Origin: Microthyrium microscopicum
Taxonomy: Eukaryota
Assembly: GCA_010405405.1 (NCBI GenBank)
Contig: MU004246.1
Coordinates: 372,001 to 436,000 of the forward strand
Length of the DNA stretch: 64,000 nt
Reading direction: 5' to 3'
Part shown: positions 3,710 through 34,741 of the stretch, in pieces
Position numbering within the stretch: the stretch's first letter is position 1
How the letters are laid out: the number at the start of each line of letters is the position of its first letter
The notes under the pieces: generated by a model
What the model was told of the DNA's origin: nothing
Database searches by the model: none
Seen by the model: only the letters and a program-made list of their open reading frames with translations
Position numbers and translations under genes: made by a program

Positions 3710-4506
3710 ACCATCATCATCAGCTTGGAGCCTTGGACGTGCTATTCAATGCTTTAACATCGTGTAGCTCGACAAACTTGCCATCATTGGTAGGACAGAT
3801 GCTTGCTGGTTTTTGATGCGAGAAGTAGATCACCAACTACTCTTGCAGTCTCCGGATGCCGGAAATCCTGGATGCTTCATGCGCGAAATGTAAATCTGGG
3901 ATGAATTGAGGTGTCTAAAGTCTCATTTGAACAATTTAGCTGGCATGTATAATAGACGGTTTACTTGAATGAAGTACGATTTTATGGGCTGGACGAAATG
4001 GCGCTTGTGGTTTGAAAGATTAGTAGCTCATGAATTGATGTTTAATATTTTGATGCAGCTCATCGAGCGAGGTTGAGATGAGGTTGAAATGAAGTTTGGG
4101 AGCTTCAAGAATTGAGGAAGTCGCGTCGCGTGGAAAAGACGCTAAGCTCAACAGCTTGACTCTCATTGGTTGATGCTAGCTCAGCCAGTATCAAATTCGG
4201 GTTCTTACTGAATTGATTACCACGTATGCAAAGGATATTGGATTTGTATGAAAATTGAAAAGTTGTATTCTGGGGTTATGAATGTGCTTCTAATAGTTCA
4301 GTATCGGCGATAAATGGTCTGGTTTTGGAGATGGACCCGCTATCCCATCTCCCAAAGCGTCGAAGTTTCCAGATTTTCACCAGCTGAGCGCCACCAATAT
4401 AAAAGATCCAAGCTCAGTCACTGATTGCGGTTGCCTAGACGGCAATATGTTAATCCGAGCGGACCTATATTTTTCCTAGCGTCAAAGTCCGCCAAGCTTT
4501 GGAAAA

Positions 4507-4672
4507 CTTTTGGGTATTTAAGCTTTCGATCCATCCACATCTTCCAAATCTTTTTCCTTTCTTCATACTTACCTTCTTGAGTCGAACCGAGATCATAAAT
4601 TCGGACGACAGAGGTGTTTACCGACATGGCACAGCGTCGAAGTCAATGCTTCTTTAGTCTCATTCGTGGGCC
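4507..4672 (-). repeat. Inverted partners of segments A (4507-4564) and B (4635-4672)
   Basis: Direct comparison with 3177-3234 and 3441-3478. Confidence 0.8.
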
Positions 4673-5791
4673 TAATCGGGGCAATTTTTGCTGGTTTCTT
4701 ACGAGAACTTTTCAATGATATCTGGCTTTATGCTGGATCTTGTGGAAGAGATCATATGGCGATTTAGGACAACACAAAACCCATCTCAGACCAAAGAGGC
4801 ACGTTTTCGTATAGAAAATTTTGTCTGCTTTCTTTAGATATGCAAACAAGTGATTGCATCTGAAATATGAAGTGATGTTTATTGTCGCGTAAAACTGATA
4901 TTGGCAACTGGTGTTGCTACTGGAGGTTTGATGGCTTCTGAGGCTCTATCTGGACTATTTATCTACTATTATACGGACGGCGCATTATTGGACCTACAAT
5001 AATTCCTTTAAGCGACTATAATTCGCGGTTCAAATATAAATGGCACTGGAAAAGCTAAAGGCGTGAGTAGCCTTTCCTCACGATTGATGGGCTTTGGTGG
5101 TGGTGGTGGTGGTGGTGGATTTGATCGTGGTGGGCCTCACACGTCGCTCTTAACTGTTGGCATTGGTTCCATGGCATGCTCGTCGCCATATGCCACTTAC
5201 TCTAGAGTATATTTCACTGAAACCAGTGGTGTTTATATTTATAAACAGCCTACCGGTACATTGAGACGATGAAAATATGGCGCATTATCGGGTTAAATAG
5301 CTCTGGAGTTGACGGTGCTGTCGCATTGCTATACCTCACTTGCTTGCCAATACCATTTTTTCACGAGACTGACAGCACGTCACGTCCTTTTGATTCTAGA
5401 GCCTCGTGAATGAGGCGAGTTCTACTTACTACAAGAATTACCCTGCTGCTTTTTTGATAAAATATGTTCTGTACTGAGTGAAATGCGATGGCGGCCACCG
5501 CCCTTAATGGGAGCTGGTTCCTCCATCGTTCTATCGTGAAAATCGTCCTTCCCTCGCGGTTATTGCCAATTGAACAGCTTAAGCTGTATAAGAAGCAAGT
5601 ATAAAATGAAAATTATGTACTGATCTAACCTGCAAATAACAGAGTGACTCTTTCATGCAGCGCGGATTGTTGCTGATGCACCCGCGGCTCACCACCCAAA
5701 ACTCCGATATCCCTCTAATCTCTCATCAACATTATTATCTCGGTCATCGCTCTTGTCCACCTTCAGCAGGAAAGCCGCAACTCCCATCAAG

Positions 5792-19082: not shown

Positions 19083-21146
19083 ATGTCCAAAAATATACTC
19101 CCGCCCGCTTCTGTCCACTACCCCGATCAGCTGGGGGCTGGCGAGATCCGTGTGCTTCGAATATGTAAAGAGCAGCCTATCGTGAAATATCAAGGTTTGA
19201 CGTTAGGCAGCTACATCCTAGAAAGAGTGCCATTAGGCAAGCAACTCAGAGGAGACTCTTCGCAAAGTTCAGCATCAACATCGAATGAGGATTTCCCAGA
19301 GGCCAGTCCAGATATAGACTTCACGGCTTTATCATACGTGTGGGGAAGCGAAGATGACAAGATGAAGATAGTCCTCAATGGCGCAATCTTTGAAATTACC
19401 CAAAACCTTCACGTTGCAATCATTCTCCTGAGGTCGGAGATCCTGAAGCAGCCTATATGGATTGATGCCATCTGCATCAACCAAACGAATTCTGTCGAAA
19501 AGGGATTTCAGTTGGCCCAGATGGCAGACGTATATCGCCAAGCTCGCAAAGTCATCGTATGGCTTGGTCCAAGCATTGGTGCGTCAGATACGGCCATGAG
19601 ACGGGCCTGTGTGATCGGCTGCAAAGCCTTGCAATACGGAGTCAGACCATCGAACGAACCGCAGGAGGCACTGGAATTGAAGCAGGATCCTCAGTCGGAA
19701 GAGTTGTTATCAGAGGTCTCAGAAATGGTTGCATCCAAAGACCCAACACAGCATTTCCCAGCTTACGATTTCGTGAAATTGACCTACAGGCCTTGGTTCT
19801 CGCGAGCATGGATTCTGCAAGAAGTCACGGTTGCCGAAGGAGAAGTATGGATAGCATGTGGAGATGTCGGACTACCCCTAGATGTATTTGCAGCAGCAGT
19901 AAAACTCGTGGCGCTTTGGCTTACTTCCGAGCTGCGCAAAGTAACACCTGCAGGCACCAGTACAGAGGAGCATAACCAGATATCGACTCTGATGGAACGT
20001 ATTGGGATGTCTAAGCTTGTAGACCCTTTCTTCTCTGCCTGGAGCCTCATCAGCCAATTTGGAGGCCCAACCAAGCAGGACAACCCTCTTCTCCCCGTGA
20101 ACCCTCAAGCATCGATGACGCTGGGCACACGTTGGAAGTACTGGAAGTTGAGAGATCAAGGGAACACCATGAGTTTGATGTCGCTGCTTACGCGCAACTT
20201 CACCCTAGACACGACAGAAGGTCTTCAATGTCGTGAGCCCAAAGACAAGATTTACGCGCTCGCGGGCATCTCGGGCGATATGGGGTTTCTCGGAGACCCG
20301 TCAAGATTCTGTGATCGTGCATGGCCGGCACATAATGTGTACATGGACACGGCCCGGCATCTGATAGGACTGGCCAACATTGATGTCCTCAGCCTGTGCC
20401 GTGAGCAGGATCCTAGCCTTCCATCGTGGGTTCCAGACTGGTCGAAGCGCATCCGGCAACCCTGGAGCCTATATCGTGACGATGGACTCTTTCACGCTTC
20501 AGGAGTATCAGAATCACGAACGAACACTTTTCTCTCAGAAGCAGGTGATGCATCGTCCAGGGTTCTGAACTTGAATGTCTACAGGGTCGACAGCGTGAAG
20601 ACGACTGGCCTGAAAGAATACGGCTCCATATGGGAAGCGGGACTGGACGATCCATTCGACTACAAGTCTGCTGGTGAAGTCTTTGATACAGTCAAGCATT
20701 TCCTTTCTCTCAGCAAGAGAGGTTACACAAAGGATGCGATATGGCGCATATCCGTAGGGGATAAGGAAACTGACAAGCAAGGTCAATTCAAACGTGCATC
20801 ACCAACCTTTGAGGAAGCATATGTCCAAATGGTAACCGAAATTCGGTCACATCATCCTGGAAAACGATATCTAGGACCGGCTTTCGCAGCATATCAGAAC
20901 ATGATGCTGTCTATGCATGGAAGCACTCCCTTTCTGTCTCAACAAGGCTATGTCGGCCTCTGTCCGGATACTACTGAGCATGATGATGTGATATGCATTC
21001 CGGTTGGCTCTCATGTTCCATATGTCTTTAGGAGAAGTGCTAATGGAACAACCTTTCGTTTGATTGGAGAAGCATACGTCCATGGTATCATGGATGGGGA
21101 ATGTATATTCGAAAGTTTGTCTACAGAACACATAATATTGGAATGA
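19083..21146 (+). CDS. HET-domain protein (HET-6-like heterokaryon incompatibility)
   Basis: FTALSYVWG, IWIDAICINQ, QMADVYRQARKVIVWLG, PWFSRAWILQE, DKIYAL, LPSWVPDWS and C-terminal LIGEAYVHGIMDGE. Confidence 0.92.
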   Translation: MSKNILPPASVHYPDQLGAGEIRVLRICKEQPIVKYQGLTLGSYILERVPLGKQLRGDSSQSSASTSNEDFPEASPDIDFTALSYVWGSEDDKMKIVLNGAIFEITQNLHVAIILLRSEILKQPIWIDAICINQTNSVEKGFQLAQMADVYRQARKVIVWLGPSIGASDTAMRRACVIGCKALQYGVRPSNEPQEALELKQDPQSEELLSEVSEMVASKDPTQHFPAYDFVKLTYRPWFSRAWILQEVTVAEGEVWIACGDVGLPLDVFAAAVKLVALWLTSELRKVTPAGTSTEEHNQISTLMERIGMSKLVDPFFSAWSLISQFGGPTKQDNPLLPVNPQASMTLGTRWKYWKLRDQGNTMSLMSLLTRNFTLDTTEGLQCREPKDKIYALAGISGDMGFLGDPSRFCDRAWPAHNVYMDTARHLIGLANIDVLSLCREQDPSLPSWVPDWSKRIRQPWSLYRDDGLFHASGVSESRTNTFLSEAGDASSRVLNLNVYRVDSVKTTGLKEYGSIWEAGLDDPFDYKSAGEVFDTVKHFLSLSKRGYTKDAIWRISVGDKETDKQGQFKRASPTFEEAYVQMVTEIRSHHPGKRYLGPAFAAYQNMMLSMHGSTPFLSQQGYVGLCPDTTEHDDVICIPVGSHVPYVFRRSANGTTFRLIGEAYVHGIMDGECIFESLSTEHIILE

Positions 21147-21814: not shown

Positions 21815-21876
21815 GAACCCCAAAGCACTAAGCTTCGCACATTACCAACTAGAGATAAAAATTAAGAGATATCAAT

Positions 21877-23035
21877 ATGGTGATCACTTCAGAGGATCAT
21901 TTCGGCACGATGCAAAAACGTCTTACGTGGACGTTGTTCCACCATGCATCCACCAAGCCTTGGCCAACATGGCCCAATGGAACATTACCTCGAGAAGGTC
22001 AGAATCTAGATCCGTATTTCGAAGTCCTTTGCCACGTCCCGGGCGTAGAGAATGTACGAATTGGGCGTAAAGTAGAAGATGTTGACCAGGCTGCCTATAT
22101 AGTCTGTGAGTTTTGTTGTTTATCATGTTTATCGAAGTCTACCACACGTGCATTAACTTGTACCTATCTCGAAAGTGCAGTTGCATATACACGTGTGGAG
22201 GAGGCTAAAAGTCATTCTATTCACTCACCCAATACCTTCAAGTACTTCCTAAGTTCCTAGTACCTACTGTACCTAACAATTTCCTCATAATACAGTATGG
22301 AGCTCCGCCGACGCACTCGCCTCATTCCAAGCATCCGCACTCTTTCCTGATTTTCTCAGGCTCCTACCCATTGGAAACGAGCAATCAGAGGCATATGACA
22401 CATCTCTGTCACGTATTATCAGCCTACAATTTGACCACGGCTTCGACATGGACACTGAACTCTACGGCCGCGTGACCCTGAACAAATTCACTGGTCTCGC
22501 TGATTGGGAATCCTGGCACTGGGGCGTGCGCAAAGCATTCAACGGATTCTTCCCGCTCGGTTGCATGGACATTCATAGGAAGAGGCCGCCAATGTACCAC
22601 TATTGCGTCACCTGGGTGGACCAACAAGGCGGTGAACAGCAAGGAATGTGGGACTGGGACCCATCGAAAAGCCTTGAGGATAAGCCGGAGATCAAGAAAG
22701 TGATAGCACGAGGCGACGAGCATGTGCGCGAGCGCTGGGAATTCCTCCGGTGGAACCAGCCCATCTACTACGGAGCCACGCGAGAGCGCGAAGAAGAGAG
22801 CACAAAACAGCCAGGGGCCATGCAGCATTGGGAGAAAGCGATACAGCGGGCCATGCCTCCAATACAAACGTGGGTACAGGAGCGTTGGGATATCGAGAAA
22901 CCATACTTTCCTATCGCGCCCGACGAGGATGATGTCGATATAGACATGGAAGACCTGGAACTTGATGAGGAAGACGAGTTCTCCGCATGTGAAGAACTTG
23001 AAGAAGACGACAGTCTGCCAGTGAGCATTAGATAA
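21877..23035 (+). CDS. Hypothetical protein, dimeric alpha-beta barrel (ABM-like) pattern with acidic tail
   Basis: Intron 22106-22295 joins PGVENVRIGRKVEDVDQAAYIV to LWSSADALASFQAS and continues into the 195-aa ORF; D/E-rich C-terminus. Confidence 0.6.
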
Positions 23036-23185: not shown

Positions 23186-24403
23186 CTAGCGCTGCGCAGA
23201 ATCTGGCCTATTCGTAAAGTCCCAGTTCTCAGGGATCGCCGGAGCAGTGCCAAACAGATAATACATCGATGCTATGAAAAACACATAGTTCTCAGGGTTC
23301 GTTCGAAGGACCGACGCCGATTTCCTACGATTAATACATTCCGCCAAAGTATCTGGTAAAGAAACCATTATAATCAGTCGCATGTCGCAGAGCAAGATAT
23401 ATCGCATTTGTGGATACAGCATACCGATGGTAGGCAATGCGAAACGCTGCGTGATGGAGATAACTTACAGAATTCAGAACTGCCCTCCAGCATTCCATCT
23501 GGCGGCCCAACCCCGAATATAAGATGGAACGCCTCATGCAGCAGCGTCATACACTTGGGCAGTGCAGTCTGTAGCGAATGCCCCTGCCTTATCTGATTCG
23601 ACCCTGCAGGCCAAGTAGCGGGTTTATCGGGGTTGTCAAAGCTCCCAGGACAAAGCAGTATGGTCGAGTATACAGCGTGCTTCTTCGCCGCACCGTTGGG
23701 GTCGGCAACGTAAAGATCCAGGATGGCCGTGAGTCCGTCGCGTCCATCTGTATTGCAGTAGTTACCGCCGCTATCTGCAGCAGTGAAGTAGTACCCGTTG
23801 GCCGTGGTGTGTGTACCGGCCCACCAAGGAACATTTTGGCCTGTCAGCTTAGTCGCATAGGCAGTGGAGATAGGCACGTTCTGTCCGTTTTGCGTGATGC
23901 CGTTGCCCTGGTAGTCCTGAGCTTGATCAGTGACTGCATGTCTGACGAGAAATGAGCTATCGCAGAAGAGAAACGTTTCGTCTGGAGGTATTTCTGGAAA
24001 TCCTGTCGTGAACCACGTTCTGACATATTCGAGGTTGGCTATTCCAGGTTTTTAGTTTTCAATTTCGCTCGAAGTCGATCGACTATTTGAACATACTAGC
24101 GATCTTATCTCTACCATTTTGACCCCTTTGAATGGACGGAGAGATCTTGAAGAACGTGTCAAGCGCTCTGCGAACCTTTCTGCCATTGGCAGTATTTGCA
24201 CCTCCGTGGGTTCTGATAGCGTTAATGGCAACCTGGACGCTTTGCAAGCTCTCCGTTGCATATTGGTTTAGATCTGCAGTCCTTGCACCGCAACCGCCAT
24301 TCGTGGTGCCTGGTTGTATGGTGAGCAAATTTGCGAGATTCTGACCATGAACAACCAAAGCGCAAGAGAGAATGAAAACGACGAAACTTGGAAGCTGTGC
24401 CAT
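23186..24403 (-). CDS. Secreted HExxH zinc metalloprotease-like protein (aspzincin/M35-related)
   Basis: Signal peptide MAQLPSFVVFILSCALVVHG; introns 24039-24096 and 23353-23468. TILLCP, TLLHEAFH (HEAFH at 23524-23538), EFY...C...NPENYVFF. Confidence 0.8.
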
Positions 24404-24752
24404 GGTGCTAAGCTTCTCCAGCAACCAAAGAAACCTCCAGCGGGATGAAAGAGCTACAAAAGAGACGGTATTGTCGGTTGATCGAGTAACCCTTATTCTT
24501 CAATATAAGATAGGATTTTGGCACGTTCATTCACAATTTAGTTGTATTCGCCAAATCCAGTATACATCCGGTGCAGAGATGAATGGATGATGAGAGTAGG
24601 ATTCGCGGCCTCTAAAATTACTATAATAGATTACCCAAATCTTTATGACAACTACGCATGCTACATGGCCCAACACCCTCCACATACCATACACTCCCTC
24701 TAAAGCCCGCAAAGCGAGCAAGTTACAATCCTTGTCTTAGCCGCGAATTCCC

Positions 24753-25325
24753 TCAAGAGGGATTCGCAGCGACAATCTTGACCAAGATACCCGAAGGCTT
24801 GAAACCAGTTGGATACGTCGAAGCCGTATACGCCGGATTAGAAGCATTAACCAAAACACCAAGCGAACCACCACTAGTTCCACAGCTGATCAGAGCGGCG
24901 GCTTGCTGTTCGGGAGTCGCCTTGGCGCCACCGTCGATGGTATTCGCAATGTCAGCGAAGAGTACACTCGAGTTGACGCTATTGTCGATATGCTTGGCGG
25001 TAGCGACAGCAGAATTTCTGGCGTAGATAGTCCACTCGCCGCAATCGGGCGCATCGGCTCTTGCCATGTTGAAAAGGCGTCCGGCTTTGGTTTGCGCGCC
25101 GTAAGCACGCAGGTACGATGCTATGTAAGCTACATCAGTGAGGTTCACGTTTTGGGGAACGCCAGATGGAGAGTTGTAGCATAGGAGATTGGGTTTTTCG
25201 CTGTCGTAGCAGATCTGCGATGAGCGGGTACTGATAGCGAGAGGAAGACTTTCTGGTGGTGTTGCTGGGTGGGCAGTGCCCAGGGTAGCGAAGCAAGCAA
25301 GTTTGAAGATGGTTTGGGAAAGCAT
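24753..25325 (-). CDS. Small secreted protein (~190 aa, 4 mature-region Cys), effector/toxin-like
   Basis: Signal peptide MLSQTIFKLACFATLGTA; single exon. Motifs DCGEWTIY, SVLFADIANTIDGG, SCGTSGGSLGV. Divergent from the GH55 gene. Confidence 0.8.
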   Translation of the reverse strand: MLSQTIFKLACFATLGTAHPATPPESLPLAISTRSSQICYDSEKPNLLCYNSPSGVPQNVNLTDVAYIASYLRAYGAQTKAGRLFNMARADAPDCGEWTIYARNSAVATAKHIDNSVNSSVLFADIANTIDGGAKATPEQQAAALISCGTSGGSLGVLVNASNPAYTASTYPTGFKPSGILVKIVAANPS

Positions 25326-25661
25326 GATGGCAACAGACGGTTTGTAGAGGAATTGTTCAGAATAGACTGGTAGGCGATGGTGGTATCTTTGATCTCCTTG
25401 GTGAAGCGGTTCAAAATTTATATCTGGATGATGCGCAACAAAATTGTACAGGATGTAGACGGTGCCTATCCAGGAATGTACGTTGTATGAATCCATAGAG
25501 ACGGTAAGACATTCTCGATCCTACCGCTGCAACCTGTGATTCCGCCTAATTTGATCGAAATGGCAAGTGCTTAGTATTAATGTGAAAGGATTGAGGTTGA
25601 AGGATTGTAGTCCGCTACCGAGGCTGAAGGATTCTTCCAATATATGCTTAATCTCACGATA

Positions 25662-25687
25662 CGATGCGGCGATGCGGCGATGCGGCG
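25662..25687 (+). repeat. (CGATGCGG)x3 in the divergent promoter
   Basis: cgatgcggcgatgcggcgatgcggcg lies between the ATGs at 25325 (-) and 25820 (+). Confidence 0.75.
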
Positions 25688-25819
25688 TAGCAATGCTTGG
25701 GAACAGAGCTGGGAACAAATCAGTCAAGTTGCAAGTATGTACTTGATTGATGGAAGCAAACGTGGATCCTGCACATCCTAATCGCTGCCAGCATTCTTCG
25801 TGGACTTCGTGACTCCAGC

Positions 25820-28800
25820 ATGGCGTTTCTTACCAATTTCACTCCCTTTCTCGCTTTGCTGTGGATAACTACGCAATGTGGTGTCGTAACAGCATCCTGG
25901 CAGTACGCGAACTCACAACGGTATCCGCAAGTACCTGCTTATGGTCCACAGGTATGACCAACCGCAGATGCTTTTTTGTTCGTGGACGTAGAGTTGACCT
26001 GACTTTGAATGTTAGCCTGGCCCGTCGTATATGGTGGACAACCAGCACAATTATTTCCAAACAAGCCCCGATAAAGGTAGATACTGTCCTCAATTGAACG
26101 CTGCAAAATGATTTGGAGCTGATGTAGCTATACTAGGGAAACAGAGAGGTCCGCTATGGAAATACTCGGGCAGCCTTGATAACTACATATCGAATTTAAG
26201 AAACGGCACTGTGGTTCGCGGCGGCTACGATAATTTGAACGGCTCAACAACTACCAGGTTCACGCGCGCCAGCAAAACAACACTACGGGTAGCAGCGAAT
26301 GGCTACTGGCTGACCAAACTCGGGCCGCTTGGAGCAGTGAGTAAGAGTGCAACTTCGGGCAATGGAGGTACTGACTGGTTTTCCAGCAACCGTTGGCTGG
26401 GAATGGCTACCAGTTCTATCGCGATGTGACAGACTTTGGGGCAGACTCCAGCGGCAACAGTGACGCCACCGAGGCGATCAACGCGGCAATAAGTAGTTGG
26501 AACCATGACTCGGCGAAGGGCGGCACTCAGAGTCGCTGCGGTAAAGAATGCGGTAACACGTTCTCGCAGGGCGCCATAATATATTTCCCACGAGGCACAT
26601 ACAAGCTGTGCTCTCCAGTGATTCAGCTCTACTACACCCAATTCATTGGCGATGCCAATGACCCGCCTACGATCAAGGGATGCGACAAGTTCCAGGGCAT
26701 TGCGCTGTTCGACACGGATCCGTACATCCCTCTCGGATCCGGCGCACAGTGGTATGTGAACCAGAATCAGTTCTTTCGGCAGATTCGCAATTTCGTGTTT
26801 GACTTGAAGGACATGCCGCTGTCAACCCAAGATAATGACCAGCCACTTGTACCGACGGGAATCCACTGGCAGGTAGCTCAAGCGACGTCGCTCCAAAACC
26901 TCGTTTTCAACATGCCTTCAAGCGGAGGGACAGCTTCAGCCAATGCCACGAGAGCAGTCGGTATCTTTACAGAGAACGGTAGCGGAGGGTTCGTATCGGA
27001 CCTAACATTCAACGGCGGGAACATTGGGTGGCGGGCCGGGTCGCAGCAATTCACAGCGCGAAACCTGAAGTTCAACAACTGTCTGACAGCGGTTCAGATG
27101 GTGTGGGACTGGGGCTTTAACTGGCAGGGCATCGAAGTCAGCGGCGGCGCGATTGCTTGTGTGTAAAGACCCTCTTGTTCATGGGAATGATGCTGATAGA
27201 TGGCTCCGTACAGTTAACATTACAGGCTTCGGCGGCGATAAAGGTCAAGGCACGGCCAGTATATCACTCATCGACAGCTCGGTAAGCAACGTGCCGGTGG
27301 GCATCCTCACCCCTTCGCGAGTTACGGCGCCCAACATCGTGCTAGACAACACACAGTTCACGAACGTCGATCGCATCGTGCAGGTGGAGGGAGGGGAGAC
27401 GTTGCTGTCAGGCAACGAAGGGCTTTGGGCGACGGGCAAGCGGTATAACGGCTCAAGCGGATCAATGCAAACGGGTTCCGTAACAGCCCCGGCGAAGGGG
27501 AAAGCGCTGCTAGACAGCAATGGAAAGCTGTTTGTGCGCTCGCGACCCCAGTATGAGACTGTGGACGCGTCCGGCTTCCTGGTGGCCACAACGGATGGCA
27601 AATGCAACAACGATGGCTCGGGCGACCAGACGACGTGCATTAACAGCTTCTTGCAACAGGCAAAGGGACAAGGTAAGATTGCCTTCTTTCCAGCAGGCAT
27701 CTACGCGGTCGGCGGCACGGTATTCATCCCTACGAACTCCAAGCTGCAGGGCTCAAGCTGGTCGCAGATCCAGGGCGGCGGCTTTTATTTTGGCGATATG
27801 CAGGCGCCCAAGGTTATGGTGCAGGTGGGTAACAAAGGTGATGTCGGCAGCCTCGAGATTGTCGAGATGTTGTTTTCGGTAAAGGGCGCCACAGCCGGCG
27901 CCATTTTGATGGAGTGGAATGTTGCCGCTGCCGAAAATGGGGCCGTCGGCATGTGGGACTCGCATTTCCGCATTGGCGGTGCCAAGGGCTCTGACCTCGA
28001 CCTTCAACACTGTCCCAAGTTCAGCCAGAACGATGAGTGCATTGCCGCCTCGCTCATATTTCGCATCACGCCCCAGGCTTCGGGCTACTTCGAGAATGTC
28101 TGGGCTTGGCTGGCCGACCACGACAATGATGCCTCTGTCTTCAACCAGCCAGACTCAACCATCACCCAGGTCAGCGTCTTTGGCGCCCGTGGCATGCTGA
28201 TCGAGTCGCAAGGCCCTTCGTGGTTCTATGGCAGCGGCTCCGAGCACTCAGTCATGTACAACTACCTACTGAGCGGCGCCAAGGACGTCTACATGGGCCA
28301 CATCCAGACCGAGAGTCCTTATTTTCAGCCTGTGCCGGCTGCTCCAGCGCCCTTCGCGCAACAGAAACGCTTCCCCAACGACCCCGACTACTCAAAGTGC
28401 AATGTTACGGCCAACAGTGACAGTGAGCAGTGTCGATATGCCTGGGGCCTGCGTATCGTCGACTCGACTAATATCACCATCCACGGCGCCGGTCTTTACA
28501 GCTTCTTCAACGCCTTCTACCAGGACTGTATCAACACCAACAACTGCCAGGAGCGCATTCTCCAAGTGACAGGCTCAACTGGTGTTGTCATCTTCAACCT
28601 GTTCACCGTTGCAACCGTCCAAATTGCCAATGGCATAGACGGTTCTAAAGTCCTGCAAAGCGACTCCAACCAACGCGGCTTCACTACCGAAGTGAGTGTG
28701 TGGCTACCACTTCCGGGCAAAGACCACGCCAATGTCGTCTATGTCGGGCCTGAAATCTTCTCGAGCCCTACTGTGAGCTGCTCGCCAACTTGCGTCTTGG

Positions 28801-31008
28801 TCTTCCCCACCAGTCAACTCGACTCGCCCACGACCATAACACCGAGCCCCTATACCACCTCGCTCGAGTATGGTACCTTTGCGTTAACATCAATCAACGG
28901 TGCCCCGGTCACCGTGTTTGTGACTTCGACGACCATAGTTACCATTACTATCTCTCCTATCACCGTTTCCGGAATGCCCTACTCCAATTTCAATATCACA
29001 TCTAGTGGGCCCACATCTATCACTATGTTTCCCAGCGTTGAGATTTCTCCTGTTACTCTGCCCGTTCCCAACGGTCAGGGAGGCACAACATCTCGCGTCG
29101 TTTCTCTGCCACCCTGGCCATTAGTGAATCAAGGCCCAGGCGGAACAGGTGTTAACACAGACCCAGGTACTGAACCGAGCACCAACACCACAGGCAGCTT
29201 GACCAGCAGTACCACATATTACACTAGCATAACTTCCACCATCACCGCGTTCGGGCCCACAGTTACAACAGTAAGCTTTCCTCCTTCGATAGTCCCATTC
29301 ATCGTCACGTGTCCGGACGAGACAGGTTTGGCATTTGCCACGCCTTCGATTACAGTAACTACGAGATGCACAGACTCATCCACTCATCCACTGAACTTTG
29401 CATGTCCCACAACAAAAGTCATCTCCTTCCTAGGATCGAGCACAGCCGTCGTTCGGGTAGACTGCACTCTTGTCACGGCATGGAGCACAGGGAAGGATGC
29501 GTCCAGTACATCAAAATTGCCCGTATACGTCACTTGGCCCCATTTTGGTGTCATAGAGCCTGTTACAACCACACCCAGTGCACCTCAACCAACTGATGAC
29601 GGGGTGACGCTGCCCTGCACAGCGTGGTTCTTCTTCATCTGCATCTCCTGGGGCCAAATTCATGTCGGCGGCTGGCACTTGATCCTGCCCCCAGGTATTT
29701 ACCCACCTGGGCCACCACCACCCAATCTGATCAAATGGCCGCCTGGCTTCACGCTTAAAGGGACACTGCCCCCTTGGCCCAAATTCACCATTGGCAACGA
29801 TCATCAAATAACCACTGATAAAGAGCCCGAGTGTCAGACCAAGACTGCTGAAGCATGCACGTATTCAACCATTTTCTCCGTCACTACAACTAAACCAGGT
29901 TCAACAACGACTACAGGTACGTCCACCTCGAGTCACTGTGAAAAAATAAAAGGCTGCTCTGTGAGTGGCTCCGACCAAACCACAACATCAACGGACGTGC
30001 AAATCGGCACACAAACAATCGCACCTGTGGGCACATGGGAAGATGAAGCTTGGTTTACCGATGATGGCGCAGCCTTCAGCAGCTCTGTCTTTGCAGAGCT
30101 GTACGCCTCATTAGAGGCTGACGAGGCAAGCCAAGGTGGTTCCACCATTAGCTTCAAACCTGGTCCGTCTGCTACGCCCACATGCGCAAGCGGTACTGGG
30201 TGCGGTGGCCACCTTTGCTCGGGCTACTGGTGTGACCCTACTCCCACGGGCGCACCGCCAGGGTATCACGACCCCAAGGACCCGAGCTCGGATGGCTTCT
30301 CTGCAACGAAGACGACAAGTGGGGGCACGACGACGACTCCGTCGCCTACGGCGACCAAGACACCGCTTTCACGGGGACCCATCCACTGCTTTAGCGAGTC
30401 GGACTTCCCTGGTCATGCTGACATCCAAGCCGGGGACCAGGACGACTTCTCGACGGCTTTCAGCAACTTGCGATCCCAAGCGGGCGACGACGACACCCTT
30501 GGACCCAGTTCCCCAGTTGTAAGGCTGCGGAAAACAGACAAACACGGTGTCAATTATGATTACTCCTGCGGCTGGGTTCCTGGTTGTGAAACCGATGTTC
30601 CAAAGCAGAGCTTTGGTTTCCCACTCGGCTCGCCCAGTCTTATCACTGCATACCTACTTGTTCGAGAGGATTTTACCAAGTGTATGTATGGCCCGTCACA
30701 TGACCATATCTATCTCATTTCAAAGGTTGTGGAATGGAAACATTGAGCTAACCATTGCCTACTTTCTAGGCACAAATGGAGGCGTCGGCGGCTCGTGCCA
30801 GGTCGGATGCTTATTGTATACTTTTGAAGGCGGCCGAGGCGATCCACCAGCCGACTGCAAGGACGTCAACTGCAGCCAGTGCGGGACGCTATTCGATCCT
30901 CCTACCTGCCAGCAGTGTTGCAAAAGTCTGTTCCGCACTTTGCTGGCTATTGGTAATAGCAGCATAAATACTGGCGATACTATTGTTGACAATATAGTCT
31001 ATAATTAG
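25820..31008 (+). CDS. Large secreted GH55 beta-1,3-glucanase with Thr/Pro-rich stalk and Cys-rich C-terminal domains
   Basis: Signal peptide; introns 25952-26015, 26077-26136, 26337-26386, 27159-27213 and 30682-30769. GH55 motifs YRDVTDFGA, YFPRGTY, NQNQFFRQIRN, IHWQVAQATSL, MWDSHFRIGG, YFENVWAWLADHD, SEH, GHIQTESPYFQP. Confidence 0.9.
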
Positions 31009-32029: not shown

Positions 32030-33580
32030 TTACTTGCTCAGGACGTAGTTTGCTCTCCTCCAAGCTTGGAACAGCCCGTACAGACCTCCCACGAGCCAGA
32101 AACCGAAAATAGCTTCCCATAAAGACGCCAGAAGGGATATAGGTATATCATTTCGGTCTGGCTGCTTGATCTTCTCATACACATCTGGTAGATTGGTTGC
32201 GGCGTACTTCACCCTCAAATTCTCATACTTACTTCGTTCGTAAATGTCCCAAAACTCGTCTTTTGTGTAGAAGGTTTGTGCATACAACCACTTCACACCT
32301 TTCAAATCTTTGACTTTTGATTCCAACGCAAGATTCGCGGCTTTGAACGATTTGTAGTTCTTGCTCCATGGTCCCCATACGCCAACATTGAGAAGCATGT
32401 CTGTGTTTTGAGGCAAGTGCTTGATTGTCAAGCCTGTTGGTCGGTACTTGATTGGACACAACCACAGTGGGTAGATACCAAAATCCTCCTCCAGATATTC
32501 CAAGAACGGGACTGTGTTGCTGAAGGGAACAGCAAGATCCTCAACAAGGTGGTGTTGTTGCATTTTACTTGCATGTAGTGCCGTGTACATTTCTCGTGTG
32601 TGAAAGAGTGAGTCTAAGAGCGTTCGGATAGTTTTCGTGAACGGAAGAAGAAAGTGTGCGCATCCGTACTTGCCCATCCAGAAAGCTCCTCGGTCGTAGC
32701 GAAATAGATAGTCCGCCAATGGCGCATAATCTACTGCTGGGGACGTTGTGGATGCATCCGAGTCCGATAATTCGCCATCGCTGGTCTTGGAATCCGTGAA
32801 TGGCCTGGTGTTATCCGATTGGATTGGGGTCGATATCATTTCTTCAACGTGCAGAAAGCACCATTCATCAGTTTTTCGACTGAACTGCGTGATCTTCCCA
32901 CCGCATGTTTCAGAAACCATTTTCCCCGTAACAATTGCTCCTTTCGTGGGCGAGAACATGATACCGTCCACAAAATCATTTCCTGATTTCGCGTCGATTG
33001 CAGCTTCGACAACTCTTTTCGCTTCTTGGAAATTGCACACCGGCAGATATGTCAGCGCTACGAATGGCTTTGCCTCAACCAATCTGATATCCAGTCTTGT
33101 CAGCACACCAATAGTGCCTAATGTTCCCGCCAGTGCATGAAATAACTCTTTCTCCTCCTCATCGCCATTTACCCCAACATCTCGTACAGTTCCGTCTCCT
33201 AGCACAACCTCAACTCTCTCGACAGTGCTGTCTAGAAATCCATACTTGAAACTACTGCTTTCAGCGGCAGAACCTGCAAACCCTCCGCCAACAGTGATGC
33301 CTGGAAATTCGGGAATTACTGGTGGAATTAGCCCATATTCGAGAGTCGCTCTGACTAGCGCATCCATAGGGACATTGGGCTCCACGGATGCGATTCGTAG
33401 ATCCTTATCTACGGAAAGTATGTTATTCAATGCACTGATGTTGACAGACGTCGCAGGATCTCGAATGACTGCTCGTGTCGAATTTGTCGATCCATGGTAG
33501 ATTCTGAAAGAGGTGCCAGCTTCGTGGAATGCGCGAACACGGGCCGAAATCGACAAAAGTGAATTTGCATGATTTTCCAT
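32030..33580 (-). CDS. FAD-binding (PCMH-type) oxidoreductase, delta24-sterol reductase/DHCR24-like
   Basis: VEPNVPMD, PEFPGITVGGGFAGSAAESSSFKYG, DYLFRYDRGAFW, YPLWLCP, KWLYAQTFY, LPDVYEK; C-terminal TM segment. Confidence 0.88.
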   Translation of the reverse strand: MENHANSLLSISARVRAFHEAGTSFRIYHGSTNSTRAVIRDPATSVNISALNNILSVDKDLRIASVEPNVPMDALVRATLEYGLIPPVIPEFPGITVGGGFAGSAAESSSFKYGFLDSTVERVEVVLGDGTVRDVGVNGDEEEKELFHALAGTLGTIGVLTRLDIRLVEAKPFVALTYLPVCNFQEAKRVVEAAIDAKSGNDFVDGIMFSPTKGAIVTGKMVSETCGGKITQFSRKTDEWCFLHVEEMISTPIQSDNTRPFTDSKTSDGELSDSDASTTSPAVDYAPLADYLFRYDRGAFWMGKYGCAHFLLPFTKTIRTLLDSLFHTREMYTALHASKMQQHHLVEDLAVPFSNTVPFLEYLEEDFGIYPLWLCPIKYRPTGLTIKHLPQNTDMLLNVGVWGPWSKNYKSFKAANLALESKVKDLKGVKWLYAQTFYTKDEFWDIYERSKYENLRVKYAATNLPDVYEKIKQPDRNDIPISLLASLWEAIFGFWLVGGLYGLFQAWRRANYVLSK

Positions 33581-34741
33581 GGAGGAACTTTTTTTGGGAG
33601 TGGCCCAAGGAAAGAGTGAAGTAGCTTCCAGATCCAAAGCTGCGCGGTATATTCAAGAGTCTGCAAGTGAGAATGAATTTGAAGTAAAGACTAAGTTCAA
33701 ATTACAGATGGAAAGAATACGCAAGGGAGGAGTAGGGACAGAGTACAGATGTAACCAAAGTCTTTCAGGGTGACCATGGCAAACAAGAAGGGATAGAGTG
33801 GTTTCCGTAGCGGCTGGTCACAGATAAAAACTTGATTTTTATCATCTCCTATTTACCCGCTAGGAAGCACGACGTTGGGCTACCGATAGAAAGCTCTGAT
33901 TTGATACAGATATAGAACAGAGACTACCCGTCATCGTGACTACTGACTAGAGCATCATTGATGTTGATCAACGCGTTCAGAAGACGCCAATGCAGTCGCT
34001 AGCCGTTGGACCGTTGGCAGGATCGAAAGCGGTGAAGCCACAGAAGGCCGTTCTGGCCAACATACGGGATCTCTCGACTGAGTCCACTCTCGAAATCAGG
34101 AATTGGTCAAAAGCTTGAATTATTCTGCAAAGTTCTTTTGCTAGCAGCTGAACTCGCGTGTTTACGTACCGTAGATCGGCTAGAACACGAAATCAAAGTC
34201 GCGACGCTAAATTTCAGCCCAAAGCAGGTTTTCTGAAGAGGCATAGCGTCTTTATTTCTAGGTTATGATTGGTTGAGCATTCCCAAGCGGCTCAGCCTAA
34301 ACCTTTTGCCGAGCAATATAAGGCTGTGCTAGCGCTACAAGTGGTTAGCAACTTACTTAGCAAGGAATTGTGCAGCTTTGCGATCTTTTCTTCCAGAACA
34401 TCTCCATGACTCCAATTTACGCCAAAAATCCAAGCCTTGGCTTGCATGATAAAAGAAAAGTCTCGCTACTAGAGCTGGAGAGATACGGTAACTATTTCTG
34501 GGAAAGTGTTCAGCTCGAAGAGCCATTTTCTGCGCACTATTCGACGCCTGCTGTCTCAGCTATCTCCCATAACGATGGCTTCCCTCGAGAGTAGAGGTCT
34601 TTTCTTGATCTCCTTTTGTTCATTCAATTCAGTTCCTGTACAATATTATCACCGCGGGGCATTGTGTAGAGCTCACCGGAGTCTTCTCAGCTGAAAACAT
34701 CTACACATTACTAATTGAGTCTGCTCGAAAATCTCCTGGAG

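What the first reader, a model, noticed from the sequence alone, without database searches (positions are those of the whole stretch)
23186..31008. Candidate GH55-based secreted antagonism (killer-toxin-like) module
Seen: three adjacent secreted-protein genes. A ~1600-aa GH55 glucanase is head-to-head (494 bp between ATGs) with a small Cys-containing protein, which is followed on the same strand by an HExxH metalloprotease. Known: subgroup C GH18 chitinases are often paired head-to-head with LysM genes and resemble the Kluyveromyces zymocin system, where a wall hydrolase helps deliver a toxin. Inference: this is an analogous system that uses a beta-1,3-glucanase as the carrier, with the small protein as partner or toxin and the protease as a processing or accessory factor.
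Basis: partly seen in the sequence, partly recalled or inferred. Interest (0 to 1): 0.75.

Follow-up and report, generated by a model that had tools for sequence, protein, structure and literature searches.

The report
Glucanase carrier paired with KP4-like protein
Three real neighbouring fungal genes, a giant beta-1,3-glucanase with a long tail, a small protein shaped like a known killer toxin, and a zinc protease, stay together in many distantly related fungi and probably form a secreted weapon against other fungi that has not been described in this form.

Summary
Window 23186-31008 carries a 1623-aa GH55 glucanase gene (+), a divergent 190-aa secreted 4-Cys protein (-) with 494 bp between the ATGs, and downstream a 347-aa HEAFH zinc protease (-).

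The linkage is not chance. 32 of 120 listed small-protein relatives share a contig or consecutive locus tags with a GH55-long relative, across four classes of Pezizomycotina. Environmental contigs show the same head-to-head layout. The protease joins the pair in only a subset of genomes.

- **Small protein:** it has no Pfam match, but a confident model has the KP4/Zt-KP4 killer-protein fold.
- **GH55 protein:** its ~730-aa C-terminal extension is modular. It shares stretches with 'killer toxin alpha/beta' GH18 chitinases, GH71 and S8 proteins, and it ends in interchangeable tails.

It does not meet zymocin criteria (no GH18/LysM, no dibasic site in the extension, no free or C-terminal Cys in the partner). 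Binding, toxicity and co-regulation remain untested. RNA contigs show antisense spliced transcripts over parts of the locus. I found no published description of this pairing.

The parts
25820..31008 (+). GH55-long gene: 6 exons (25820-25951, 26016-26076, 26137-26336, 26387-27158, 27214-30681, 30770-31008 with stop), 1623 aa, hydrophobic N-terminus
   Evidence: Gene model with GT..AG introns. Colinear matches to relatives of 1432-1735 aa. Last intron 30682-30769 is seen as a GT..AG joint in an RNA contig.
26396..28718 (+). GH55 catalytic head (two beta-helix domains; one intron at 27159-27213), about residues 135-890
   Evidence: PF12708, E 5.4e-70. Solved GH55 enzymes 5m5z and 3eqn. The SEH motif aligns with chain residue 616 of 3eqn. 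That this residue is the catalytic acid Glu633 is recalled, not taken from a call.
28722..29168 (+). Extension module A (residues ~892-1040)
   Evidence: 49% identical over 140 residues to P0248, 'Killer toxin subunits alpha/beta 6' (GH18+LysM+S8), E 1e-28. Also found in GH71 proteins P0253 and P0256 and in S8 protein P0255.
29484..30029 (+). Extension modules B/C (residues ~1146-1327), including the hydrophobic stretch WFFFICISW...PPGIYPPGPPPP
   Evidence: Shared with GH55+S8 P0212, GH18 types P0248 and P0245, and with P0250, P0254 and P0255. Several residues are nearly invariant in alignment A4.
30138..30296 (+). Extension module D (residues ~1364-1416; CASGTGCGGHLCSGYWC...DPKDP). In S8-bearing relatives the protease domain sits just before it.
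30363..31005 (+). C-terminal tail of type E (residues ~1439-1623, Cys-rich end; intron 30682-30769)
   Evidence: 61-62% identical to the tails of GH71 proteins P0253 and P0256. It is one of at least five unrelated tail groups behind module D. It has no named family. The fold model was unusable, pLDDT 45.
25326..25819 (.). 494-bp divergent intergenic region between the two ATGs (putative shared promoter)
   Evidence: Read from the sequence. The head-to-head layout recurs in metagenome loci L002, L007, L009 and L011. Promoter function was not tested.
24753..25325 (-). Small secreted protein, 190 aa, one exon; invariant C39, C49, C95, C148 and E43; KP4-like fold from about residue 44
23186..24403 (-). 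Zinc metalloprotease, 347 aa, 3 exons (24403-24097, 24038-23469, 23352-23186); HEAFH plus an invariant Glu 17 residues after the second His
   Evidence: Weak Aspzincin_M35 matches occur in 3 of 8 full-length relatives.

Best explanation
This is a conserved, co-inherited secreted module of filamentous ascomycetes, most likely used against the cell walls of other fungi.

Its core is a divergently transcribed pair.
1. A GH55 exo-beta-1,3-glucanase head is fused to a ~730-aa modular stalk. The same stalk modules occur behind other wall-degrading heads (GH18+LysM 'killer toxin alpha/beta' chitinases, GH71), and the stalk ends in an interchangeable tail.
2. A strongly conserved 150-residue partner has the KP4 / Zt-KP4 killer-protein fold.

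In some lineages, including this one, an M35/HRXXH-like zinc protease gene follows the partner gene.

Proposed working: the glucanase head digests the beta-1,3-glucan layer of a target wall. The KP4-fold partner then acts at the exposed wall or membrane, either free or held by the large protein. The protease is a lineage-restricted accessory, for processing or as an added effector.

Shown here: gene structures, family assignments, conserved linkage, shared modules and the fold. Inferred: secretion, joint expression, any physical complex, antifungal action and the protease's role.
For: Linkage from database tables:
- 31 of the 120 small-protein relatives listed share a contig with a carrier listed. 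One more pair has consecutive locus tags.
- Eight genomes have consecutive locus tags: Kalmusia, Pestalotiopsis fici, Xylaria grammica, Pyricularia sp., Apiospora hydei, Hypoxylon texense, Rosellinia necatrix and Cadophora gregata.
- These genomes span Dothideomycetes, Sordariomycetes and Leotiomycetes. Eurotiomycete relatives of both proteins are also listed.

Linkage from DNA: of 19 metagenome loci, 15 have at least 1.5 kb upstream of the small gene.
- 4 carry a full GH55-long gene divergently, close by.
- 4 carry a remnant of one.
- 5 carry a more distant GH55 2.8-5.2 kb upstream on the opposite strand.
- 2 carry none.

Protease: 9 of its 15 relatives share a contig with the pair. It lies downstream on the same strand in L002, L007 and L015.

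Partner and carrier type: partners of S8-type carriers cluster on the partner tree, needing 2 changes where 500 shuffles average 5.7 and none is as low. This fits paired duplication.

Fold: the model has pLDDT 83. Foldseek's best hits are Zt-KP4 8acx, probability 0.97-0.99 for the top three chains. The independent VIA search gives 8acx Z 8.4 (102 of 112 residues), Y3 lectin 6.5, UmV KP4 1kpt 6.1, 4nds lectin 5.6 and DUF26 4.7, then unrelated rows. Zt-KP4-1 and UmV-KP4 inhibit fungal growth (PMC12382754, passages read).

Shared modules with 'killer toxin alpha/beta' proteins.

GH55 head: the acid-residue motif is conserved.
Against: - The partner is far more conserved (mean column identity 54% across classes) than the toxins of the known zymocin-like clusters, which are reported as highly diverse. 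Such conservation also fits a structural or sugar-binding role.
- Three of the fold hits are lectins or sugar-binding domains (Y3, 4nds, Gnk2).
- No Pfam KP4 or Hce2 match was found in 32 family members scanned, nor in the window ORF.
- No immunity-like gene was identified.
- The one transcriptome-like run available shows spliced transcripts antisense to the GH55 5' part and to the protease 3' part. In the contigs shown it confirms only one sense intron. Joint sense expression is therefore not shown.
- The protease is absent from most loci that could be assessed (3 of about 12 with enough downstream sequence).
Confidence: 0.42

Rival explanations
1. The pair is an enzyme with a non-toxic helper. 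The KP4-fold protein would be a lectin-like wall or beta-glucan binder, or an inhibitor or guard that targets the glucanase or protects the producer's own wall. This would parallel the LysM proteins encoded head-to-head with subgroup C chitinases. The module would serve wall remodelling, feeding on fungal biomass or self-protection, not toxin delivery.
For: - The fold family includes sugar-binding proteins: Y3 Z 6.5, 4nds Z 5.6, Gnk2 with mannose Z 3.6, DUF26 Z 4.7.
- The partner is very conserved and keeps pace with the carrier. For example, 69% against 77% identity for Kalmusia, and 59% against 62% for P. fici.
- The partner is conserved whatever tail the carrier has.
- One relative (P0339) carries a sub-threshold chitin-binding module in front of the domain.
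Against: - The closest structural match is a protein shown to inhibit fungal growth (8acx; PMC12382754).
- The carrier's stalk is shared with proteins of killer-toxin-like clusters.
- No sugar-binding motif was tested.
Confidence: 0.3
2. The large protein is itself the toxin: a polymorphic-toxin-like carrier whose interchangeable C-terminal tail is the active payload. The small conserved protein would be a general maturation, secretion or protection factor for the carrier.
For: - Behind the conserved module D the tails fall into at least five unrelated groups (17, 15, 6, 2 and 2 members, plus singletons). This count covers 47 carrier tails plus the window's; 47 of the 49 carriers of 120 in which my pattern found module D had a tail long enough to compare.
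- The same tail type E sits behind both GH55 and GH71 heads.
- The partner does not co-vary with the tail.
Against: - No tail matches a known toxin family (no named cluster; the precomputed Pfam column shows no tail domain).
- The tail model was unusable.
- Some tail differences may be gene-model errors. Many database models stop at the conserved last intron.
- No immunity gene that varies with the tail was seen.
Confidence: 0.15
3. It is a true zymocin-type system. The small protein would be an intracellular nuclease-like gamma-toxin, disulfide-linked to the processed C-terminal part of the large protein and carried into the victim cell.
For: - Stalk modules are shared with C-II-type 'killer toxin alpha/beta' proteins.
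- The partner has an invariant Glu close to the start of its folded part. It is E43, four residues after the first Cys, and at position 4-6 of the mature protein in short-leader relatives (read by eye). The preprint stresses a Glu at position 8 of gamma-toxins.
- Loci with a GH71 or xylanase gene instead of a chitinase beside a toxin candidate are mentioned in the preprint.
Against: - The fold is KP4-like, and the solved yeast toxin was not among the VIA rows (absence is inconclusive).
- The partner has four invariant Cys, the last at residue 148 of 190, and none near the C-terminus.
- No KR/RR site lies in the extension.
- Its high conservation contrasts with the diversity reported for gamma-toxins.
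Confidence: 0.08
4. The three genes are unrelated neighbours with no joint function.
For: No direct evidence of co-expression or binding was obtained. The flanking genes are unrelated: a HET-domain gene and an FAD oxidase.
Against: Adjacency and orientation are conserved across classes and in environmental contigs.
Confidence: 0.03

Closest known systems
[quoted passage not shown]
   Same: - A large secreted wall hydrolase gene lies next to a gene for a small secreted protein.
- The large protein here shares three stretches (E 1e-28, 1e-10, 5e-7) with a GH18+LysM+S8 protein named 'Killer toxin subunits alpha/beta'.
- The genes contain introns and lie in the nuclear genome.
   Different: - The head is GH55, not GH18+LysM.
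- The partner has a KP4-like fold, four Cys and high conservation.
- No dibasic site lies in the extension, and no immunity homologue was identified.
- The preprint reports no clusters in Dothideomycetes or Leotiomycetes. It does not mention GH55 (0 occurrences). It notes only one GH71 locus and one xylanase locus.
KP4 structural superfamily: UmV-KP4, Zt-KP4-1 / ECP2 (Hce2) effectors (PMC12382754, passages read)
   Same: The alpha/beta-sandwich fold matches (8acx Z 8.4; 1kpt Z 6.1). The protein is small, secreted and Cys-stabilised. Four relatives are named 'Ecp2 effector protein domain-containing' by a source.
   Different: It matches neither Pfam Hce2 nor Pfam KP4. It is about 40 residues longer. 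It is much more conserved, and it is tied to a GH55 gene. The paper describes KP4-fold groups without Pfam domains, to which this family may belong; that was not checked.
Hce2 domains fused to C-II chitinases (e.g. A. nidulans ChiC2-2, T. virens TVC3), as described in the same preprint
   Same: A KP4/ECP2-fold unit is combined with a killer-toxin-like wall hydrolase.
   Different: Here the unit is a separate, divergently transcribed gene and the hydrolase is GH55. No fused form appeared among the best 150 of 216 profile hits; the longest was 472 aa.
GH55 exo-beta-1,3-glucanases (Chaetomium thermophilum 5m5z, Phanerochaete chrysosporium Lam55A 3eqn)
   Same: The head aligns over the solved enzymes, with E 7.5e-102 and 3.3e-80 for the second half. 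The SEH motif is kept.
   Different: The solved enzymes have about 750 residues. This protein has about 730 more residues behind the head, and about 100 residues precede the catalytic head (part of them conserved; whether the solved enzymes lack that part was not tested).
Head-to-head LysM / subgroup C chitinase gene pairs (Gruber et al., as cited in the preprint; not read by me)
   Same: A divergent pair of a wall hydrolase gene and a small secreted binding-type protein gene.
   Different: Different hydrolase family and different partner fold.
Aspzincin (M35) / HRXXH fungal zinc peptidases
   Same: HExxH is present. The C-terminal part gives weak Aspzincin_M35 matches in 3 of 8 relatives (E about 4e-4, below cut-off). 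Language-model features score 0.96 to Ascomycota 'Lysine-specific metallo-endopeptidase' clusters.
   Different: Neither the window protein nor a family profile matches a solved structure by sequence. The GTxDxxYG-type Asp is not conserved; an invariant Glu follows instead.

Membership tests
GH55 (CAZy) beta-1,3-glucanase | Sequence similarity to characterised GH55 enzymes over both beta-helix domains | tested here: met
   PF12708, E 5.4e-70, on exon 4. 5m5z E 7.5e-102 and 3eqn E 3.3e-80 on exon 5.
GH55 (CAZy) beta-1,3-glucanase | Catalytic acid (Glu633 of PcLam55A; residue identity recalled) | tested here: met
   GSGSEHS aligns with GTASEHH of 3eqn at chain residue 616. The Glu is invariant in 33 carriers (E731 of A4).
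Zymocin-like killer toxin cluster | Alpha/beta precursor is a C-II GH18 chitinase with LysM | tested here: not met
   Only PF12708 was found on the large protein. The head is GH55.
Zymocin-like killer toxin cluster | Region behind the hydrolase head homologous to that of killer-toxin-like chitinases | tested here: met
   P0248 and P0245 (LysM+GH18+CBM18+S8) match modules A, B/C and D. Homology to the K. lactis beta subunit itself was not tested because no sequence was at hand.
Zymocin-like killer toxin cluster | Gamma-toxin: small secreted protein with Glu near position 8 of the mature chain and a Cys near the C-terminus for a disulfide to the beta subunit (criteria from the preprint) | tested here: not met
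   Four invariant Cys, the last at 148 of 190, and none near the C-terminus. An invariant Glu (E43) lies near the start of the fold, but its mature position depends on an unverified cleavage site.
Zymocin-like killer toxin cluster | Dibasic (Kex-type) processing site between alpha and beta parts | tested here: not met
   KR/RR occurs only at residues 464 and 773, inside the GH55 head.
Zymocin-like killer toxin cluster | Immunity gene homologue nearby | not tested
   No immunity protein sequence was available to search with. The flanking ORFs gave HET, FAD_binding_4 or no Pfam family.
KP4 / Hce2 killer-protein superfamily | KP4-type alpha/beta sandwich fold | tested here: met
   Model pLDDT 83. 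8acx probability 0.97-0.99 for the top three chains. Z 8.4 (8acx) and 6.1 (1kpt), with the related lectin and DUF26 folds next and unrelated rows below Z 4.
KP4 / Hce2 killer-protein superfamily | Match to Pfam KP4 (PF09044) or Hce2 (PF14856) | tested here: not met
   No such hit at E up to 10 in 8 proteins, nor at E up to 0.1 in 24 more distant members.
KP4 / Hce2 killer-protein superfamily | Antifungal activity | not testable with these tools
   Needs purified protein.
Aspzincin (M35) metallopeptidase | HExxH plus Asp in a GTxDxxYG motif | tested here: inconclusive
   HEAFH is invariant. The Asp-bearing stretch is gapped in most relatives, and an invariant Glu lies 17 residues after the second His. 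Aspzincin_M35 scores 21 bits against a cut-off of 30 in 3 of 8 relatives. Atlas feature score 0.96.
Polymorphic toxin (concept) | Conserved delivery part with interchangeable C-terminal domains and a co-varying immunity gene | tested here: inconclusive
   Interchangeable tails are seen. No toxin domain was recognised. The neighbouring small protein does not co-vary with the tail.

The most novel reading that the evidence does not exclude
Filamentous ascomycetes have a second, undescribed branch of binary killer systems alongside the zymocin-type chitinase clusters. In it, a beta-1,3-glucanase-headed carrier with swappable C-terminal tails works with a dedicated, highly conserved KP4-fold subunit, sometimes with its own protease. 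The pair has been inherited, and duplicated as a pair, since before the split of Dothideomycetes, Sordariomycetes, Leotiomycetes and Eurotiomycetes. The stalk modules would then be a common delivery scaffold onto which different wall-degrading heads (GH18, GH55, GH71, S8) and different tails have been shuffled.
Probability: 0.3. Interest if true: 0.8.

Novelty: new variant of a known kind. Interest (0 to 1): 0.62.

Why it matters
Killer-toxin-like systems of filamentous fungi are so far tied to subgroup C-II chitinases. The survey that defined them found none in Dothideomycetes or Leotiomycetes.

A conserved GH55-headed relative with a KP4-fold partner would widen that picture. It would give a genomic context, and so a testable function, to a Pfam-less branch of the KP4 superfamily. 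It would also point to a shared modular scaffold behind several fungal wall hydrolases.

The pair occurs in biocontrol genera (Trichoderma, Clonostachys), in plant pathogens and in dimorphic human pathogens. Its role in fungus-fungus competition or in wall biology is therefore of practical interest.

Tried and rejected
- **Complex prediction:** GH55 head of the Kalmusia carrier (residues 45-885) with its cognate small protein (33-185). No verdict, score 0.00, controls not run. This says nothing for or against binding. The stalk and tail were not tried because only one job was allowed.
- **Fold of the type-E tail:** 13-row alignment, mean pLDDT 45, unusable, so no fold search was made.
- **Atlas search with the tail of P0165:** only unnamed Ascomycota clusters.
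- **Sequence searches against solved structures:** nothing for the small protein or the protease, as a single sequence or as a profile.
- **Pfam Hce2/KP4:** no hit.
- **Fused forms of the small protein:** none among the best 150 profile hits. The few longer rows carry unrelated domains and look like gene-model artefacts.
- **Whole genome of the window:** not held, so no paralogue or immunity-gene search was possible.
- **Earlier findings of this scan:** nothing returned.
- **RNA:** no listed holder is on record as RNA. The single run laid is a guess at RNA and is kept as contigs, so it gives no levels, no strands beyond splice sites and no absence. GH55 introns 1-4 and both protease introns were not seen in the contigs shown.
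- **Single-linkage clustering of the tails without low-complexity filtering:** it lumped everything and was replaced.
- **Literature:** these searches (GH55 + killer toxin/Hce2; GH55 + KP4; zymocin + Pezizomycotina + glucanase; polymorphic toxin + fungi + secreted + chitinase; zymocin-like + filamentous fungi + gene clusters) found no description of a GH55/KP4-like gene pair. The preprint's supplementary tables, which list its toxin groups, could not be seen. One of its groups could therefore overlap this family.
Full report
**What is there.** The window is fungal. The best hits of two of the three proteins come from Dothideomycetes, and the protease exon matches a Microthyrium microscopicum protein at 98%. 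The window's own GH55 protein was not among the rows.

On the + strand a GH55 gene starts at 25820 and ends with the stop at 31008. The model has six exons (25820-25951, 26016-26076, 26137-26336, 26387-27158, 27214-30681, 30770-31008), five GT..AG introns of 50-88 bases and 1623 codons. Full-length relatives align colinearly with it. An RNA-derived contig skips exactly 30682-30769.

On the - strand, 494 bases from that ATG, a single-exon gene (25325-24753) encodes a 190-aa protein with a hydrophobic N-terminus. A further 349 bases downstream on the same strand lies a three-exon gene (24403-24097, 24038-23469, 23352-23186). It encodes a 347-aa protein with HEAFH, identical in structure to database protein P0121.

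Secretion signals were read by eye only. The database copy of the small protein (P0001, 247 aa) starts at an upstream ATG. The 183-190-aa relatives support the ATG at 25325.

**The large protein.** Exon 4 matches PF12708 (E 5.4e-70). Exon 5 matches solved GH55 beta-1,3-glucanases: 5m5z at E 7.5e-102 and 3eqn at E 3.3e-80. The SEH motif aligns with the residue I recall as the catalytic acid of the Phanerochaete enzyme, and it is invariant in 33 relatives.

The solved enzymes end near residue 890 of this protein. About 730 further residues follow with no Pfam family. Searching with that part alone gave 131 proteins. Pairwise and BLAST comparisons show that it is modular.
- Module A (~892-1040) is shared with GH18+LysM+S8 proteins, one of them named 'Killer toxin subunits alpha/beta 6' (49% identity over 140 residues, E 1e-28). 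It is also shared with GH71 proteins and with an S8-only protein.
- Modules B/C (~1146-1327) include a hydrophobic, proline-rich stretch. They are shared with the same GH18 proteins, with GH55+S8 proteins of about 2100 aa, and with S8 and other architectures.
- Module D (~1364-1416) is a small Cys motif. In the S8-bearing relatives the protease domain sits just before it.

Behind module D the sequences diverge. My pattern found module D in 49 of the 120 carriers. Of these, 47 carrier tails plus the window's were long enough to compare. They fall into groups of 17 (including the window's), 15, 6, 2 and 2, plus singletons. The window's tail (type E) is 61-62% identical to the tails of two GH71 proteins.

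Some tail differences may be gene-model errors, because many database models stop at the conserved last intron. The groups nevertheless recur across species. No KR/RR site lies in the extension.

**The small protein.** It has at least 144 relatives at E 1e-3 in the word-indexed search. A profile search found 216 cluster representatives, almost all stand-alone proteins of 100-220 aa, and no long fused form among the best 150.

It is unusually conserved: 53-87% identity to the listed relatives, and mean column identity of 54% in a 30-row alignment spanning four classes. C39, C49, C95, C148 and E43 are invariant.

It matches no Pfam family, including Hce2 and KP4. A source names four relatives 'Ecp2 effector protein domain-containing'.

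An AlphaFold model (pLDDT 83, folded part from about residue 44) is most like the Zymoseptoria effector Zt-KP4, 8acx. Foldseek gives probability 0.97-0.99 for the top three chains, E 0.014. An independent all-against-all structural search gives 8acx Z 8.4, the Y3 lectin 6.5, the Ustilago KP4 toxin 6.1, a mushroom lectin 5.6 and DUF26 domains 4.1-4.7. Gnk2 follows at 3.6 just below one unrelated chain at 3.8, and the remaining rows are at 2.6 or less.

These hits are all versions of the KP4-type alpha/beta sandwich. The paper on Zt-KP4-1 (passages read) reports three things. Zt-KP4-1 carries the Hce2 domain. It and UmV-KP4 inhibit fungal growth. The structural superfamily contains groups without any Pfam domain.

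**The protease.** HEAFH and a Glu 17 residues further on are invariant. The family is small: 16 relatives besides an unrelated esterase row. It has no sequence match among solved structures. Three of eight full-length relatives give sub-threshold Aspzincin_M35 matches. Language-model features place it with Ascomycota 'Lysine-specific metallo-endopeptidase' clusters at 0.96.

**Linkage.** Of the 120 small-protein relatives listed, 31 share a contig length, and the organism name where one is given, with a carrier listed. One more pair (Cadophora) has consecutive locus tags. Eight genomes in all have consecutive tags for the two genes. Both lists are capped at 120 rows and clustered at 90% identity, so a missing mate means nothing.

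In Kalmusia the tags 002092, 002093 and 002094 are carrier, small protein and protease. In Xylaria flabelliformis the carrier and the protease are two tags apart. Nine of the 15 protease relatives share a contig with the small protein or the carrier.

I then fetched DNA. A scan of metagenome contigs with the small-protein alignment gave 19 loci, which I mapped with tblastn. Fifteen have at least 1.5 kb upstream of the small gene.
- Four (L002, L007, L009, L011) carry a full or contig-cut GH55-long gene on the opposite strand close by.
- Four (L003-L006, two distinct sequences) carry only the end of the head, with or without the stalk. L006 shows a stop just upstream and altered motifs, so these look like decayed copies.
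- Five (L010, L013, L014, L017, L018), with small proteins only 38-42% identical, carry a more distant GH55 2.8-5.2 kb upstream on the opposite strand.
- Two (L008, L012) carry none. L012 has a LysM ORF there instead.

The protease lies downstream on the same strand in L002, L007 and L015. It is absent from the roughly nine other loci with enough downstream sequence.

On a tree of 31 small proteins with known mates, the six whose mates carry an S8 domain need 2 changes of label. Shuffles average 5.7, and 0 of 500 are as low. The same orders hold both kinds, which fits duplication of the pair as a unit. Relatedness alone can produce such clustering, so this is supporting evidence only.

**Transcripts.** One public run (coded X1, guessed to be RNA, kept as contigs) holds 90% of the sampled words. 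Its contigs cover the locus and contain five intron-like skips.
- One skip is the last GH55 intron in the sense direction.
- Three (26328-26375, 25999-26048, 25709-25833) have GT..AG ends only on the - strand. They belong to a transcript antisense to the GH55 5' part that runs towards the small gene.
- One (23430-23477) is a + strand intron antisense to the protease.

GH55 introns 1-4 and the protease introns are not skipped in the contigs shown. Contigs keep only the commonest path and give no levels. This shows that antisense spliced RNAs exist. It does not show that the sense mRNAs are absent, and it gives no evidence of co-regulation.

**How it most likely works.** The strongest facts are these.
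- The pair is conserved across hundreds of millions of years.
- The glucanase head looks active.
- The stalk is shared with killer-toxin-like chitinases and other wall hydrolases.
- The partner has a killer-protein fold.

I therefore read the locus as a secreted wall-attack module. The GH55 head strips beta-1,3-glucan, and the KP4-fold partner acts on what is exposed, free or attached. The protease is an optional accessory. I put this at about 0.4.

The main rival, at about 0.3, is a non-toxic helper: a lectin-like targeting or self-protection factor. The partner's high conservation and the sugar-binding relatives of the fold favour it.

A third reading, at about 0.15, takes the interchangeable tails as the payload and the small protein as a general helper.

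A strict zymocin mechanism is unlikely, at about 0.08. Its defining features were tested and mostly not met: no GH18/LysM, no dibasic site in the extension, no C-terminal Cys in the partner, and a different fold and conservation pattern.

Chance adjacency is essentially excluded.

**Comparison with what is known, and novelty.** The preprint of Heneghan, Salzberg and Wolfe (Results parts 1-2 read) describes clusters of C-II chitinase, gamma-toxin and immunity genes. It found none in Dothideomycetes or Leotiomycetes. It notes single loci with GH71 or a xylanase in place of the chitinase, and it does not mention GH55. Their 2026 perspective (first part read) adds nothing on glucanases in the part I read.

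Five further full-text searches found no paper on a GH55/KP4-like pair. I could not see the preprint's supplementary tables, so an overlap between this family and one of its toxin groups is not excluded.

I rate the finding as a new variant of a known kind: a GH55-headed sibling of killer-toxin-like systems with a partner of a different, KP4-type fold.

**Verdict.**
- Observation: confirmed.
- Interpretation: partly supported.
- Interest: 0.62.

Noticed in passing
window 25709-26375 (- strand introns 26328-26375, 25999-26048, 25709-25833) and 23430-23477 (+ strand intron): Contigs of a transcriptome-like run carry canonical introns on the strand opposite to the GH55 5' part and to the protease 3' part. 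The antisense RNA over GH55 runs towards the small gene. It could be a long spliced leader of that gene or a separate non-coding RNA.
   Followed up: partly
window 19083-21146 (+): The upstream neighbour is a 687-aa ORF with a HET (heterokaryon incompatibility) domain, E 1.4e-28. Between it and the protease lies an acidic ORF pair (21859-23035, +) with no family.
   Followed up: no
window 32030-33652 (-): The downstream neighbour is an FAD_binding_4 oxidoreductase-like ORF, E 1.3e-17. One RNA contig runs from the GH55 3' half across the spacer into this gene.
   Followed up: no
window 24753-25496 (-): The database copy of the small protein (P0001, 247 aa) starts at an upstream ATG (25496). Relatives of 183-190 aa and the signal-like N-terminus indicate the ATG at 25325, so the deposited model is probably too long.
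   Followed up: partly
L003 136-1584 and L006 5-1723 (- strand); L004 5620-5881; L005 1724-1985: Environmental loci in which the small gene is kept but the neighbouring carrier has lost most or all of its GH55 head. In L006 there is a stop just upstream and a Cys of the module D motif is replaced. These are probably decaying copies.
   Followed up: partly
L012 1764-2474 (-), small gene at 4390-4836: A distant member of the small family (41-42% identity) has no GH55 upstream. Instead a LysM-domain ORF lies on the opposite strand. This hints that the family can also pair with chitin-type partners.
   Followed up: partly
proteins P0250, P0253, P0254, P0255, P0256: The stalk modules also occur behind GH71 heads, in S8-only proteins, and in a protein with TcdB-type, VCBS and GDSL-lipase Pfam entries plus S8. 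This suggests wide shuffling of heads on one scaffold.
   Followed up: partly
alignment A4, residues 49-94 of P0144 (window exons 2-3, 26016-26336): A nearly invariant stretch (YMVDNQHNY...GPxWxYSGSL...RGGY) precedes the GH55 catalytic domain in the long carriers. I did not test whether ordinary GH55 enzymes have it.
   Followed up: no
protein P0339: One relative of the small protein has a sub-threshold chitin-binding (CBM18) module in front of the KP4-like domain.
   Followed up: no
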